Shown: positions 18,001 to 24,000 of the stretch, in pieces
Position numbering within the stretch: the stretch's first letter is position 1
Layout of the letters: each line of letters starts with the position of its first letter
From: Escherichia coli
Lineage (GTDB): Bacteria; Pseudomonadota; Gammaproteobacteria; Enterobacterales; Enterobacteriaceae
Reading direction: 5' to 3' (one strand)
Length of the DNA: 64,000 nucleotides
Assembly (NCBI RefSeq): GCF_013122565.1
Contig: NZ_CP053258.1
Position numbers: made by a program

Positions 18001-21000
18001 TATGTGTCATTAACGCTACAGGAGTTTACATTCGACATATCTATGTTTGTGTTCACTAATTTATATTAGGAATTCAGTGATGTAATCTGAAATAGCCTTA
18101 TTCAATTTTGATAAAATAGATTGTTCTCTAACGCGTTGAAAAATAATATTTTTTAGTGTGTTCTTAACTGTTTTAAGATGTTGATTTAAGAAAACATAAG
18201 AGGTGCTGGTCATAGTGGTTACTGCACTATAACCAGCATTTTTAACCAAATGATTGTAATGCTTAGCCATTATCTTCTGAATTATCGGTTAAGAGTTCAA
18301 TATATGCCTGCGCTTTACTCTTAACACTATCATCCTCACAATTGTTAATAATATGATAGAAACATTGCATTGCGTTATCGATATTTTTAGCCCCAATTTG
18401 ACATTGACCCATACGATAAATAACTGAATAGTCATCATACGGGGAGTAATTGTAACTTAGTTTGTAAAGGTCATATGCTTGTTGATATTTCTTTTTTGAC
18501 TGACATACTGATGCATAACCTTTTAGATACTCATGATTTTCGAACGCGTAAATGCACAAAAATTTATAATAAATTTCTGCGTCCGTTATATTACCATTTT
18601 CATGGTAGTCGAATGCATATGCATATATTCTATCAAGGATATCAGGAGTCAAACCATGTAGTAATGCCAGATTTTCTCCTTTCGATAATGCGTGTTTTAG
18701 TTGATTTGCCCATTCATCACTATTATTGAATATTTCAATTGTTTCTGTGTCCATAATATTCCTCTGTGATGTGTCTCGTGATGCTAAATTATTGTTGATT
18801 GACTCATTGATATTTTTATATTTATCTTTTTTAAATTATGAGTTTTAAGCTTGCATTGCTTATGAGTATATTTCTTCATTATTGGTAAAATTACTGTCCA
18901 CTACAAACTAATAACATCATTAGTTGTTTTACTAATATTCACCTTATTAGCTATCTTAATTACGACATTCCATAAATGCCTTAATGTGCATGACCATGAT
19001 TCATATTAGCAATTTCCATTTTTTCGATCAAAATTAAAAAGGGGATTTTTGCGAAAGGTCGAATGTCGTTTGGTTTTTTTTCTTTATTATGTCTGGTGAC
19101 GAGGGGGGATAGAACGTCGGTGCATATAGTAGAGAATTTATCCAAGTCTAAATTATTCTCTATTTTGGTCAGTTTTATTAGTTCATTTGTAGCCATACTC
19201 ATTAAATCATCTGTTATCGGAAATTTATATATGCTCATAGCAGATAATATTGCTTGCTGAATTATTTCTTCAGAAATATCCGCTATCTTTATTGACAAAT
19301 CATGTATTAGATATTTTCCTCCAAGAGATTCTTGTTCAATATAATTTAAACCAGACCTCATAGTAATTTTAACTGGATTAACGAATTTTTCTTCATTTTT
19401 CTTATTTTTGTTTTCCTGATCAGGAACTAATGGTTGCAGTGGTAGGCTATTATTGATATTTCGTGGCTTCATTTTACATTTCTCTCATTTGATTAGAGCA
19501 AAATCCGAACTCGCAGCTTCTGATAATGTCAAATATCACCTTTTCTCATACTTTATTCTATCAAAAATCGCTCATTTTTACTTTTTTTACCATAATGTTA
19601 CTTTGTAGCATCGGCAATTTACATAACTTACATGTTGTTTTTTATATCCTGAAAAAACAGATAGATAGTGTGCGCACTCGAAATGATATTGGTAACATAA
19701 ATAGCTTTATTCGTGATAAACATCTCAAAAGATTTCCTTTATTATATTCGAAATTCATTTGATCAAGGTTATCACCTTATGGAGACGTTACGTAGAATGA
19801 CTATATTTGTTATCGGCACATTAGGGGTATTAATTTTAGTATTGATGGAAGGTGATTATTGAACAGTAACATCGAGTCACGGTAAAAATGTGAGGTATAT
19901 AATGGACATTGAGTTTTCGCAGATTCATGAAATGGTCTATATGCATGATATTGTAAATTCGGACTCGAAAAAGAAACCAAGGATTCCGTTAAAAAAATTC
20001 CTTAATGCTGAGAAGGTTCTCACGCAAACAACATCATGGGCATTAAATTCAAGATATGTGAATGTTAATTCTGTCAGTAAAGTCAACGTAAAGAGTAAAA
20101 TCAAAAACAGTTATATCTCACGATCTGTCAATGATGAGTTTAGTTTAACAGATGATGAAATCAATTCTTTCAAAGAAACGTTAGTCCTTTCCTCTATTGA
20201 TTCACTGAGTAAACTGGTTCTTAATAATCCTCTTTCTGTATTGTTTACATCGACTGTACGAAGGAATAATAATCGAGCTAAGATGAATGTAGAGTTCGAC
20301 TCATGGATTTGCACCAGATGTTGTTGATACATGATATTTTACATTGCAACGAGATGTCTGAAATGAAAGATGTTGATCAAAACTTTGATGCTTTAGACTG
20401 CCATATACTGCATGCATATTTAATTTTATTGTTTTATGATTAACGAGGTTCCATCTTTTTGTTATCTATTTTAGTTTACCTTGCACAATGCATTATTGCT
20501 CTGTTACCAATACTCAAAATAAAAGCATGCTTACCTTGCTTTAGTATATTATAGCTTATACTTTTTTCTGGAAAGACATAAAAATCAGGAATAAGTTCTG
20601 CAAGTCTATCATCATCGACTTGATCCATAATCTCAAACTTATTAACTTTCTTTGATGTTAAATGGGCTGTGTCATAGTTTTCAAGCCATGTGTATTCAAT
20701 ATTTCGCCGTATTGATTTACTTTCTCTGTTACGTTGTTGCCAGGTTCCACTCAACGCAACAGTTCCTGTTTTATTTTTTTTGTTATACATAAAGTCAATG
20801 GTCAGATTTGCTCGCCCCTGGTCATTAAAAATTACCCAATTTGCAGTGCATGTTTCATTATATATCATTTTTTCTGCAGTATAAGAATAGACAATGAAGA
20901 GAATAAACCCACTAATAAAAAGTAAAATAAATAATAAGTTTTTTTTATAATCAATCACGATTAACCTCACGGTAAGACAGGGTTAAACAGCCTGCCACTT

Positions 21001-24000
21001 CATGTTGGTTATAGTTTTTATTGCATGCCATAACAATCATCCCTGGTGAGGATTTTGCCAGAGGGAAGTATAACCACGGATATTTTTTACAGTTAATCCC
21101 CGAATCCAGTATCCGTGTTTTATATTTATCGAACTCTTTCAACCCATCAATTGTATCTTCTGTCACATTAAAATGGCAGCCATTAATTTCCGCAACAGTC
21201 TTGTAATCCTTGAAAAATGGCTTCGGTTGATTTTTATTCCATAGCCAATATGCAGAATATGCGCCTATGACAAATGCGCTTAACATAATTAGATAACTTT
21301 TTATATGTTTGAGGATTTTGTTATTGAAATTTTTTGCGCCACCAATGCTCTCTTTGTATCCCGCATTAACTTTTACGGCAGGTGGAGCATTGTGTGTATG
21401 TGCGTCTGTTGACGAGTTTATTACATGATTTTGTATGTTAATGTCATTATGGATCTTGAATCCTCTTCTCGGCACGGTTGCAATAAGTGAGTGGGTAGTA
21501 TCACCAACAGCGCGAAATCCGCGTCTGATAATGGATATGTTCTGATATAACGTGTTAGTTGGCACACGCATGCCTTCTTCTTCCCAGACTCTGGTGAAAA
21601 AATCTTGTTGTGCAACCACATCAGGAAAAGCTTCAAGTAGAAGGGATAAACAACGACTGGCTGGCGTTGTCAGAACGACGTTAAGATCGGCGTTATGTAC
21701 CGATATTAATTTTCGGTGCTCAGGCCAGAACTCGATATTATCGTTAATAATCCAGTACATACGTCAATAAACACTAAATCAATCGAAATGGAGATCACAT
21801 AGTTTGCTAAGTATATTGGTATTTACGGCATAAATATATATTAATTTTATATTTATCATGATGATTGAAATGAGGCTTTAATGTTGCAACGTAAAACTTT
21901 ACGTAAATTAACATGGTTAACATTTATGCCACTATTGTTTGTAAATTCATATTTCGTAATGCTTCTGAATTTTTCGTGTGATGGTTTTAAATACTATGTT
22001 GTTTACTCTTGGGGTTACTGCTTATTTATAAAATACGGGCATTTCAATAGATGCCCGTATGAACAGAGTATGATTCTGGCTGGTCGTTGAGTATCAATGT
22101 TGGACCGAATGTGAACGAATAAATAATTCGTTTATTTTACCACCCATTCTCTTTTCGATTCGTTGCTTGTACGCGTAGATGCTACGGATATCCATATCCA
22201 GCACTTCAGCAATCTGATATGGATTATAACCAGAAACCATATACCCCATTATGGTGAATTCCATCTGAGTTAATGTGTTACCTCTGGTAAATGATAAATA
22301 ACGACCAATAAATAGTTGTCTTATCTTTTCATTGGCAACATCAAGACCATCATCATTATATATGACAGCAGATATTGCAGAGTTGTGTTTTCGCCAGTAG
22401 TTAGCTAACGATTGCATATTGCGGTCGCTGACTAAAACAATCCCCATATCCGTACTTGCAAGATAGTCAATCCAGTCTTTTTCAAGGAATAGACGTAAAA
22501 AACTTACTGAAAAATCGACAAAAATATATCCGCTTAATCTCGCATTGTGGTTTTTTGTTAAGATACCTTCCACCACACCACGATTAAAATATGAACTTTC
22601 TTCTGGCCACATACAAAAACACGAGTTTGCGCAATACTGCAAACGCGGTGACTCTTCTGGCATTATTTGGCAATGCATTGAGCAACTATTGCATGTAAGA
22701 CTTTTATAACGACTACAAAGCCCCATGTTAAGAACCTCCCTATCCGTATATAATTGCATAATTTCATTGGTTATTGATGATGTCAATACACCATGATTTT
22801 GTAATGTTGCTGGGAAAAATTGCGATTAATCTGTATTTGCTATAATTCTGATTAAGACATTTAAAAATGCATTTCTCGTTATTAAATATGATTATGTTTC
22901 ACAGATTTAATCTTGCATGGTTGAGAGTGGTCCAGATAACTATCTCATGGTATGAGAATATCTATATCGCAAATTGTTTTTGAATGAGCAGAAGATATCT
23001 TGCGAATCTAAGTTATGCATCTTAAATAGTCTTATTTAAGATGTTCAGATCTCTTTGTGTGTTTAACTAACTGATAATACTAGGATATGATGAGGGGAGT
23101 GATAGAGCGGAATAATAACAAATAAACATTATGAAAACTGGAATGGTTCAAAATTGTAGCATTTTTGAACCATTCACAACGGATATTAGCTAAAGAACAT
23201 TACCGATACGCACAGGATACCCACGATCAGCGTAATCAGATTTCCGATGGAACGCCAGGGTTTAAGCGCCGGGATGAGGTACGTTGACAGCGTAGGCATG
23301 ATGAAAAGTATCATGGCAATGAGCGGGCCGCTGATCGCATAAATCATCGAAATCGCGTTCGGGTTAATGCAACAAACAATGAAGGTAATCAGCGATACCA
23401 ACATAATTGATAGTGCGCGGTTAAATGCACGACTTTTCTTTACACCAACCTGCTGTAATGTTGTTTTGACGACCTCTGTGGCACCTTCAATAACGCCAAA
23501 GTACGTACCCAGGAATGATTTCGACATCGCAACTACTGCGACAATAATCCCCGAAATTGACAACCATGCTGGGGCGTTCGGCAGCATTGAAAGTGCCGAT
23601 AAAATGGTAACCCCTTCTTCTTTAGCCGCTTCAATATACGAAGGTGGAATAGAAAGCAGGCAGCTAAAGACAAAGAACAGTACACTTATGCAGATGATGA
23701 GATAAGCGACTTTCATAATTTTTTTGCATTTATCCATAGCGTGTTCACCATATTTTTCACGTCTGTCTATGGCAAACGTAGAAATAATGGGCGTATGGCT
23801 AAAGGCGAAAACCATCACGGGAATCGATATCCATATCTGGTGAAGGGTATTCTGATTGAACTCTACCTGGGTTGTTAATAGATCAGGTTGCCAACTACCG
23901 ACAAGGTAAATGGAAAGAAATAAGAAATAGGCAATCAATGGGAATACCAAAAAACCCATTACCCGAATGGTTGCATGGCGTCCCATCAGAAAAATGAGAT

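What the first reader, a model, noticed from the sequence alone, without database searches (positions are those of the whole stretch)
20476..21760. ToxR/ToxS-like two-gene module (yqeI-yqeJ) inside the island
yqeI encodes a winged-helix domain, one TM helix and a Cys-containing periplasmic domain (ToxR/MarT architecture). The next gene, overlapping by 20 nt, encodes an N-terminally anchored periplasmic protein (ToxS/FidL-like architecture). This looks like a membrane-integrated one-component signalling pair and may regulate the T3SS or other virulence genes.
Basis: partly seen in the sequence, partly recalled or inferred. Interest (0 to 1): 0.45.

Follow-up and report, generated by a model that had tools for sequence, protein, structure and literature searches.

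The report
Known ToxR/ToxS-type membrane sensor pair YqeI/YqeJ

Summary
Window 20951-21760 (-) is yqeI (269 aa) and 20476-20958 (-) is yqeJ (160 aa). They lie in the low-GC ETT2 island of an E. coli chromosome.

- **YqeI:** it has a ToxR-type winged-helix domain (ToxR DNA-binding domain in PDB, E=2.6e-14 with a family profile). A hydrophobic segment sits at a conserved position. The periplasmic domain has four invariant cysteines.
- **Relatives:** the pair is 41-42% identical to Salmonella MarT/FidL. The same two-gene arrangement occurs in all six other loci I examined.
- **Correction:** the overlap is more likely 8 nt (GTG at 20958, preceded by GAGG) than 20 nt.

Kinch et al. 2022 (PNAS) named YqeI/YqeJ a ToxRS/VtrAC-type co-component system and an ortholog of MarT/FidL. 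Xue et al. 2020 reported that a yqeI deletion in avian pathogenic E. coli lowers flagella, adhesion, serum resistance and colonisation. The ligand and the direct targets remain unknown.

Two side notes:
- yqeJ carries two A8 runs that are frameshifted in some strains.
- yqeIJ is kept in about four times more genomes than the T3SS apparatus.

The parts
20951..21760 (-). yqeI CDS (269 aa plus TGA stop): a membrane-anchored ToxR/MarT-type transcription regulator.
   Evidence: ORF. RefSeq annotation of the homologous locus. 99% identical to the main E. coli YqeI cluster. 41% identical to MarT.
21455..21679 (-). OmpR/PhoB-type winged helix-turn-helix (residues 28-102). The conserved N-terminal block spans residues 1-105.
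   Evidence: Pfam PF00486, E=2.5e-9. ToxR DNA-binding domain 8b4b, E=2.6e-14 with the family profile over residues 1-108.
21236..21298 (-). Predicted single transmembrane helix of YqeI (about residues 155-175, SYLIMLSAFVIGAYSAYWLWN).
   Evidence: Hydropathy maximum is 1.45. The same position is the hydrophobic maximum in all 28 homologs, mean 2.09. No dedicated topology predictor was available.
20954..21235 (-). Periplasmic domain of YqeI (residues 176-269) with four invariant cysteines (195, 224, 246, 258).
20476..20958 (-). yqeJ CDS (160 aa plus stop) from the GTG at 20958. It overlaps yqeI by 8 nt. An alternative upstream GTG at 20970 would give 164 aa and a 20-nt overlap.
   Evidence: The RefSeq start is used. 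E. albertii has an ATG at the equivalent position.
20965..20968 (-). GAGG Shine-Dalgarno-like motif inside the 3' end of yqeI, 6 nt upstream of the yqeJ GTG at 20958. This arrangement is typical of translational coupling.
   Evidence: Junction sequence CGTGAGGTTAATCGTG. GGAG or GAGG occurs at the same place in the Citrobacter, E. albertii and Kosakonia junctions.
20878..20937 (-). N-terminal membrane anchor helix of YqeJ (residues 8-27).
   Evidence: KD19 2.52. AF2 helix at residues 3-30.
20479..20856 (-). Periplasmic 8-stranded lipocalin-like barrel of YqeJ (residues 35-160). Cys37 and Cys158 lie on the first and last strands.
20939..20946 (-). First A8 run in yqeJ (codons 4-7, YKKN).
   Evidence: A homopolymer polymorphism in yqeJ is reported in PMC11186120.
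20774..20781 (-). Second A8 run in yqeJ (codons 59-62, NKKN). It is A9 and frameshifted in some strains.
   Evidence: Strain 90-3040 yqeJ is annotated 'frameshifted'.
21761..22093 (-). AT-rich intergenic region between yqeH and yqeI. It presumably holds the yqeIJ promoter, which was not identified.
   Evidence: Promoter-like hits are not above shuffled expectation: 13 found against 9.4 +/- 2.8. This placement is inference only.

Best explanation
yqeI-yqeJ encodes a two-protein, membrane-integrated signalling unit. The literature calls this a co-component transmembrane transcription regulator. It is of the ToxR/ToxS-VtrA/VtrC kind and is the Escherichia ortholog of Salmonella MarT/FidL.

**Shown here**
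- YqeI has a cytoplasmic ToxR-type winged-helix domain, a variable linker, one hydrophobic membrane segment, and a small cysteine-rich periplasmic domain.
- YqeJ has an N-terminal anchor helix and a periplasmic 8-stranded lipocalin-like barrel that resembles ToxS and VtrC.
- The genes overlap by 8 nt, with a ribosome-binding motif for yqeJ inside the end of yqeI. They are therefore probably co-translated in fixed proportion.

**Inferred**
- The two periplasmic domains form a heterodimer. This is supported by the fusion model and by a published co-expression experiment.
- A small hydrophobic ligand, or another envelope cue taken up by the YqeJ barrel, changes the stability or oligomeric state of YqeI.
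- YqeI stays in the membrane and then binds promoters and alters transcription.

**Published output**
- In avian pathogenic E. coli, YqeI positively affects flagellar genes, adhesion, serum resistance and colonisation.

The ligand, the DNA site and the direct targets are unknown.
For: **Sequence and family**
- Pfam Trans_reg_C match.
- ToxR DNA-binding domain is the top PDB hit.
- 41% identity to MarT and 42% to FidL, taken from an SPI-3 locus with mgtCB and misL.
- Homologs of YqeJ carry PF27292 YqeJ_C.

**Structure**
- The YqeJ AF2 model has pLDDT 93.6.
- A fusion of the two periplasmic domains gives pTM 0.80 despite a disordered 30-residue linker.

**Genomic context**
- The I-J adjacency, with a 1-11 nt overlap or a 10-nt gap, occurs in all 6 other loci examined. 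These come from Salmonella, Citrobacter, E. albertii, Kosakonia, Trabulsiella and Enterobacter.

**Constraint**
- Cysteines are invariant or nearly so in both families.
- dN/dS is 0.06-0.24.

**Literature**
- PMC9214523, PMC10269533, PMC13042144 and PMC7552227.
Against: - No ligand, DNA site or direct target is known.
- The APEC transcriptome shows 587 changed genes, which does not separate direct from indirect effects.
- The hydrophobic segment of this YqeI is weak by hydropathy (1.45), and I could not run a topology predictor.
- The heterodimer evidence from my side is a single pTM value from an artificial fusion, with no interface readout.
- The region is AT-rich. A Nature 2025 paper used the K-12 yqeG-ygeI fragment as its example of a 'CHIN' element. 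That this means H-NS-type silencing is my inference from the paper's title on the silenced genome (PMC12460168). The module may therefore be rarely expressed.
- yqeJ is frameshifted in some strains.
Confidence: 0.85

Rival explanations
1. Same architecture, different role for YqeJ. It would not be a ligand receptor. Instead it would be a stabilising partner that shields the YqeI periplasmic domain from regulated proteolysis, as TcpH does for TcpP and ToxS does for ToxR. The signal would then act through redox state or disulfide formation in YqeI's four periplasmic cysteines.
For: YqeI has four invariant periplasmic cysteines, and YqeJ has one Cys pair that is invariant or nearly so. [quoted passage not shown]
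Against: The closest solved folds, VtrC and ToxS, are both bile-salt binders according to their PDB entries and PMC13042144. The two roles are not mutually exclusive.
Confidence: 0.3
2. The pair is a decaying, transcriptionally silenced remnant of a horizontally acquired island. It has little or no present function in most E. coli.
For: - GC content is 31-38% across window 1-24000, against about 52% in the core.
- A Nature 2025 paper used the K-12 yqeG-ygeI fragment as its example of a 'CHIN' element; that this means silencing is my inference from the paper's title (PMC12460168).
- The ETT2 apparatus part is missing from most genomes (933 of 5426).
- yqeJ is frameshifted at an A-run in strain 90-3040, and several truncated YqeJ clusters exist.
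Against: - Both ORFs are intact in this window.
- dN/dS is 0.06-0.24 within E. coli and against E. albertii.
- The pair is retained in 3596 of 5426 genomes, about four times more than the T3SS genes.
- All family-invariant residues are kept.
- The yqeI deletion phenotypes in APEC were restored, some only partly, by complementation.
Confidence: 0.12
3. [quoted passage not shown]
For: It lies inside the island beside other ETT2 regulators (yqeH, ygeH). VtrA/VtrC and BprP/BprQ of the same superfamily do control T3SS genes (PMC9214523).
Against: - The cassette persists in thousands of genomes that lack the T3SS apparatus.
- Its homologs sit next to unrelated genes in other genera: fimbriae, an ShlB-type transporter, a GGDEF protein, the misL autotransporter.
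- The published APEC data point to flagella and adhesion and do not mention ETT2 genes.
Confidence: 0.1

Closest known systems
Salmonella enterica MarT/FidL (SPI-3)
   Same: - Same two-gene order.
- Full-length similarity: YqeI-MarT 41% identity, E=3e-74; YqeJ-FidL 42%, E=1e-42.
- All periplasmic cysteines align.
- Both partner proteins carry PF27292 YqeJ_C.
   Different: - MarT/FidL sits beside the misL autotransporter in SPI-3 and activates it (literature cited). YqeI/YqeJ sits in ETT2 facing yqeK, which has no Pfam match.
- As called in L002, MarT is 285 aa with a 31-residue N-terminal extension, and fidL starts 10 nt after the marT stop rather than overlapping it.
Vibrio ToxR/ToxS
   Same: - The DNA-binding domain is recognisably homologous (PDB 8b4b, E=2.6e-14 with the profile).
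- Both are membrane-anchored two-protein units.
   Different: - There is no detectable sequence similarity between YqeJ and ToxS (10-12% identity in the structural alignments; no PDB sequence hit).
- The YqeI periplasmic domain lacks the C-terminal helix of ToxR (and Kinch et al.).
- The targets differ.
Vibrio parahaemolyticus VtrA/VtrC bile-salt receptor
   Different: - 6-9% sequence identity.
- VtrA lacks the periplasmic disulfides (Kinch et al.).
- VtrA/VtrC binds bile salts and controls T3SS2. Neither ligand nor T3SS control is shown for YqeIJ.
E. coli O157:H7 GrvA/FidL and other FidL-like cassettes (STM0344/0345, SF3508/3507, BprP/BprQ)
   Same: Paralogous cassettes that Kinch et al. place in the same disulfide-containing subgroup. 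My exhaustive profile search found 126 representative clusters. In the 60 whose cysteine positions I printed, almost all share the same length and Cys pattern.
   Different: I did not compare them individually. Their genomic locations and targets differ (GrvA controls LEE-dependent adherence; BprP/BprQ controls T3SS3).

Membership tests
ToxR/ToxS-VtrA/VtrC co-component transmembrane transcription regulators (Kinch et al. 2022) | N-terminal cytoplasmic OmpR/PhoB-type winged helix-turn-helix in the first protein. | tested here: met
   Pfam PF00486, E=2.5e-9. ToxR DNA-binding domain is the best PDB hit: E=1.7e-7 with the single sequence, 2.6e-14 with the profile.
ToxR/ToxS-VtrA/VtrC co-component transmembrane transcription regulators (Kinch et al. 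2022) | [quoted passage not shown] | tested here: met
   There is one hydrophobic window, at residues 149-175 (KD19 1.45, weak). The same position is the maximum in all 28 homologs, mean 2.09. This rests on hydropathy only; no topology predictor or experiment was available.
ToxR/ToxS-VtrA/VtrC co-component transmembrane transcription regulators (Kinch et al. 2022) | A small alpha/beta periplasmic domain of ToxR/VtrA fold, usually with a conserved disulfide near the C-terminus. | tested here: inconclusive
   - AF2 gives beta-beta-alpha-beta-beta-beta with pLDDT 81-97.
- Four cysteines are invariant, including Cys246 and Cys258 on the last two strands.
- Foldseek found no ToxR or VtrA periplasmic hit.
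- I could not see which part of the fusion model aligned.
ToxR/ToxS-VtrA/VtrC co-component transmembrane transcription regulators (Kinch et al. 2022) | An adjacent downstream gene for an N-terminally anchored periplasmic lipocalin-like barrel (ToxS/VtrC fold). | tested here: met
ToxR/ToxS-VtrA/VtrC co-component transmembrane transcription regulators (Kinch et al. 2022) | The two periplasmic domains form a heterodimer. | tested here: inconclusive
   The linker-fusion AF2 model has pTM 0.80 with both domains confident and the linker below 50. This suggests a defined mutual arrangement, but no interface or PAE readout was available. Kinch et al. report a complex on co-expression; I could not see those data.
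ToxR/ToxS-VtrA/VtrC co-component transmembrane transcription regulators (Kinch et al. 2022) | An environmental ligand (bile salts for VtrC and ToxS) switches transcriptional output. | not testable with these tools
   No ligand is known for YqeJ or FidL. Kinch et al. say the link to lipid binding is 'less clear'.
MarT/FidL orthologous group (Pfam PF27292 YqeJ_C partner) | Full-length sequence homology of both proteins, with conserved cysteines and the same gene order. | tested here: met
   BLASTP gives 41% identity at E=3e-74 and 42% at E=1e-42. The L002 context is mgtC-mgtB...marT-fidL-misL. PF27292 is found on the partner in all 6 other loci.
TcpP/TcpH | Sequence or fold similarity to TcpP and TcpH specifically. 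| not tested
   No TcpP or TcpH sequence or structure appeared in any search. Kinch et al. link YqeI and TcpP through a shared disulfide and note that the TcpH model has low confidence.

The most novel reading that the evidence does not exclude
YqeIJ may be a stand-alone envelope or host-lipid sensor that E. coli keeps independently of the ETT2 secretion machinery. It is retained in about four times more genomes than the T3SS apparatus. Its partner gene yqeJ carries two A8 runs that slip to A9, which gives lineages or subpopulations a heritable way to uncouple the regulator from its sensor. This would be a phase-variation-like switch on a co-component system. I found no mention of such a switch for this family in the papers I read.
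Probability: 0.07. Interest if true: 0.45.

Novelty: already known. Interest (0 to 1): 0.12.

Why it matters
The pair belongs to a family of membrane-bound regulators that enteric pathogens use to sense the gut (ToxRS, VtrAC, TcpPH, PsaEF, GrvA-FidL). Identifying it correctly in a raw window shows that the scan works, but the identification adds nothing to what was published in 2020-2023.

Three questions remain open: what YqeJ binds, which promoters YqeI binds, and why the cassette outlives the secretion system beside it. Answering them would explain the virulence and motility phenotypes reported in avian pathogenic E. coli.

Tried and rejected
- **Local family libraries for YqeJ.** Pfam and NCBIfam scans gave only chance-level hits (DUF2461, RD3, ComGF; E 0.06-0.15). 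The local Pfam copy returned no PF27292 match, although the database's precomputed annotations carry that family.
- **PDB sequence search with YqeJ.** Nothing below E=0.2.
- **Word-indexed homolog search with YqeJ.** It reached only Escherichia. The exhaustive profile search was needed to see the wider family.
- **Promoter and terminator scans of 20200-22200.** Not above shuffled expectation, so I name no promoter or terminator.
- **Foldseek on the fusion model.** It did not recover a ToxR or VtrA periplasmic domain.
- **Counting A8 against A9 genomes with 62-63 nt queries.** No match, because low-complexity masking left flanks shorter than the megablast word. The 98-99 nt queries gave only a rough estimate, because this window differs from every complete genome by at least 3 bases in that stretch.
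- **Supplementary methods of Kinch et al.** Not held as text.
- **Considered and rejected.**
  - yqeJ as a chance ORF in AT-rich DNA. This is excluded by dN/dS, the confident fold and the conserved synteny.
  - The 20-nt overlap as the real one. The Shine-Dalgarno motif and the E. albertii ATG favour 8 nt.
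Full report
**What is there**

On the minus strand, window 20951-21760 is an ATG-initiated ORF of 269 aa. Window 20476-20970 is the longest form of a second ORF (164 aa, GTG start). Megablast of 20300-21900 against 5426 complete E. coli genomes finds the segment in 3730 of them, always chromosomal. It is annotated yqeI ('winged helix-turn-helix domain-containing protein') and yqeJ ('protein YqeJ'), and the best identity is 98.1%.

The annotated neighbourhood is yqeF, yqeG, yqeH (LuxR-type), yqeI, yqeJ, yqeK, ygeG (TPR chaperone), ygeH (HilA-like), an SLT transglycosylase and a LuxR response regulator. [quoted passage not shown] GC content is 31-40% over window 1-24000 and about 50% afterwards.

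In this window the island looks largely complete. Positions 1-12000 match T3SS apparatus genes at 98.7%, and ygeH is an uninterrupted 458-aa ORF here, whereas it is frameshifted in the best-matching genome.

**Checking the observation**

YqeI:
- It matches Pfam Trans_reg_C at residues 28-102 (E=2.5e-9).
- Its only marked hydrophobic stretch is at residues 149-175. This is weak on the Kyte-Doolittle scale (1.45).
- In an alignment of 28 homologs at 36-74% identity, every protein has its hydrophobic maximum at that same place, 110-120 residues from the C-terminus, with a mean of 2.09.
- The segment after it holds four cysteines (195, 224, 246, 258) that are invariant in all 28.

YqeJ:
- It has a strong N-terminal hydrophobic helix (KD19 2.52).
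- It has two cysteines, at 37 and 158. In a 97-sequence family alignment with a mean column identity of only 24%, Cys37 is invariant and Cys158 nearly so.

Both genes show purifying selection against another E. coli, O157:H7 and E. albertii. dN/dS is 0.06-0.14 for yqeI and 0.09-0.24 for yqeJ.

The described architecture is therefore real. One detail needs correcting. RefSeq starts yqeJ at the second GTG (20958), giving 160 aa and an 8-nt overlap. That codon is preceded by GAGG at a 6-nt spacing, and E. albertii has an ATG at exactly that position. The GTG at 20970 has no such motif. GGAG or GAGG also occurs just upstream of the partner gene's start in the Citrobacter and Kosakonia junctions. 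This fits translational coupling.

**What it is, from my own tests**

*YqeI.*
- Its closest solved relative by sequence is the ToxR DNA-binding domain. E is 1.7e-7 with the single sequence and 2.6e-14 with the family profile, covering residues 1-108. CadC is next at 3e-4.
- A Salmonella homolog (P0131, 285 aa) lies in a locus reading mgtC-mgtB ... regulator - 154-aa protein - 968-aa autotransporter. This is SPI-3 with marT, fidL and misL.
- YqeI is 41% identical to that MarT over 267 residues (E=3e-74), with all four periplasmic cysteines aligned.

*YqeJ.*
- It is 42% identical to the Salmonella FidL (E=1e-42).
- The database's precomputed Pfam annotation places both partner proteins in PF27292 'YqeJ_C'.
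- An exhaustive profile search of 1.84 billion representatives found only 126 clusters at E<=1e-3. In the 60 whose cysteine positions I printed, almost all have one Cys near residue 35 and one three residues from the end. This is a small, fast-diverging family.

*Structure.*
- With a 97-sequence alignment, AlphaFold2 gives YqeJ a confident model (pLDDT 93.6, pTM 0.79). It has a helix at residues 3-30 followed by eight strands and one short helix.
- Foldseek against the PDB puts ToxS of V. parahaemolyticus and V. cholerae in the top three places (E 1.8e-4 to 6.9e-4). VtrC follows at a TM-score of 0.67.

*Heterodimer test.*
- I built a fusion of YqeI 177-269, a 30-residue Gly-Ser linker and YqeJ 29-160. 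The alignment had seven paired rows plus unpaired homologs of each half.
- The model has pLDDT 85.8 and pTM 0.80, with only the linker below 50.
- A pTM that high for two domains on a floppy tether suggests a defined mutual arrangement. I had no interface readout, so I count this as supportive only.
- In that model the YqeI periplasmic domain is beta-beta-alpha-beta-beta-beta.

**Synteny**

In all six other loci I opened, the YqeI homolog is immediately followed by a PF27292 gene. The loci come from Salmonella, Citrobacter, E. albertii, Kosakonia, Trabulsiella and Enterobacter. The two genes overlap by 1-11 nt or are separated by 10 nt.

The neighbours differ between genera:
- chaperone-usher fimbriae
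- an ShlB-type transporter
- a GGDEF protein
- the misL autotransporter
- housekeeping genes

Only in Escherichia is the cassette inside ETT2.

**How it most likely works**

Shown:
- the domain order
- the ToxR-type DNA-binding domain
- the ToxS/VtrC-type barrel
- the tight gene coupling
- the constraint on both genes

Inferred from the family (PMC9214523, PMC10269533, PMC13042144):
- The two periplasmic domains pair.
- The barrel takes up a hydrophobic ligand or otherwise reports an envelope cue.
- This changes the stability or oligomerisation of YqeI, which binds DNA while still in the membrane.

Published output comes from one study in avian pathogenic E. coli. Deleting yqeI changed 587 transcripts and lowered 26 flagellar genes. 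It also lowered flagellation, adhesion to DF-1 cells, serum survival and organ loads in chicks, and complementation restored these phenotypes, some only partly (PMC7552227). That study does not separate direct from indirect effects. Nothing I found shows control of the ETT2 secretion genes themselves.

**Rivals**

- YqeJ may act mainly as a protector of YqeI against proteolysis, with the cysteines as the sensing element. This is compatible with the same architecture, and I cannot separate the two.
- The pair may be a silenced remnant.
  - For: the AT-rich DNA; use of the K-12 yqeG-ygeI fragment as the example of a 'CHIN' element in a 2025 study, which I read as silencing only from that paper's title (PMC12460168); and frameshifted yqeJ alleles.
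  - Against: the low dN/dS, the intact invariant residues, retention in 3596 genomes against 933 for the apparatus genes, and the complemented phenotypes.

**Comparison with what is known**

This exact pair has been described.
- Kinch et al. 2022 list 'E. coli K-12 ECK2845 YqeI / ECK2846 YqeJ lipocalin' among candidate co-component systems.
- They relate YqeJ to FidL by HHsearch and by a shared disulfide, and they call YqeI/YqeJ orthologs of MarT/FidL.
- They state that the periplasmic domains form a complex when co-expressed.
- Later papers list YqeI with its partner YqeJ (written YqeIJ in one) as members of the family.

My tests independently reproduce those conclusions and add nothing that changes them. 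One small discrepancy: that paper counts YqeI/YqeJ among the cassettes without overlapping reading frames. With the RefSeq start the genes overlap by 8 nt.

**Verdict**

The novelty class is 'already known', and interest is low (0.12).

The residual open questions are the ligand, the DNA targets, and why the cassette outlives the T3SS. The most novel reading I cannot exclude is that the two A8 runs in yqeJ make the sensor half switchable. I give that about 7%.

Noticed in passing
window 20939-20946 and 20774-20781 (yqeJ, minus strand); L010 1069-1552: yqeJ contains two A8 runs (codons 4-7 and 59-62). Strain 90-3040 has A9 at the second run, and RefSeq marks its yqeJ 'frameshifted'. Roughly 70 of 2971 complete genomes appear to share this. 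Truncated YqeJ protein clusters (P0005, P0020, P0026) fit frameshifts at these runs. A methods paper (PMC11186120) noted the A8/A9 polymorphism only as a strain marker.
   Followed up: partly
window 1-12000 versus 20300-21900: yqeIJ is present at >=80% coverage in 3596 of 5426 complete E. coli genomes. The T3SS apparatus part of the same island is present in only 933. The regulator pair therefore outlives the secretion system.
   Followed up: partly
window 212-17929: The ETT2 island in this window looks unusually complete. There is a run of long uninterrupted ORFs matching T3SS apparatus genes (EscV, SctN, EscU and PrgH types) and an intact 458-aa ygeH, which is frameshifted in the best-matching genome L001.
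   Followed up: no
window 20476-20958 versus 20951-21760: This window's YqeJ is more diverged from the common E. coli protein (96%) than its YqeI (99%). No complete genome is more than 96.9% identical over a 98-nt stretch of yqeJ, while the core genes lysA-galR reach 99.2%.
   Followed up: no
L008 1-515 and 5001-6303 (Trabulsiella odontotermitis): Two separate YqeI/YqeJ-type cassettes lie 5 kb apart on one contig. This suggests local duplication of the module.
   Followed up: no
L002 10409-11026 (Salmonella SPI-3): A 205-aa EcpR_N-domain protein sits beside misL, on the side away from marT-fidL. E. albertii YqeH, which lies just upstream of yqeI, carries the same EcpR_N domain. SPI-3 and the ETT2 edge therefore share three regulator-type genes in a rearranged order.
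   Followed up: no
protein P0003 (E. coli E22, 200 aa): This is a chimeric protein. The first 140 residues or so are YqeJ, fused to an SLT transglycosylase C-terminus. It indicates an internal ETT2 deletion joining yqeJ to the SLT gene in some strains.
   Followed up: no
window 21650-21652 (YqeI Cys37): A cysteine inside the winged-helix domain (Cys37) is invariant in all 28 YqeI homologs aligned. I did not look into any role for it.
   Followed up: no
window 19890-20327 (+) and 20363-20443 (+): yqeK converges on yqeJ in the position that misL occupies after fidL in SPI-3. It has no Pfam match. RefSeq also annotates a 26-aa hypothetical ORF between yqeK and yqeJ.
   Followed up: no
PMC7552227, Results 3.5: The APEC yqeI paper says the wild-type motility halo was 'significantly smaller' than the mutant's, yet it concludes that deletion reduced motility. 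This is an internal inconsistency in the only phenotype study.
   Followed up: no
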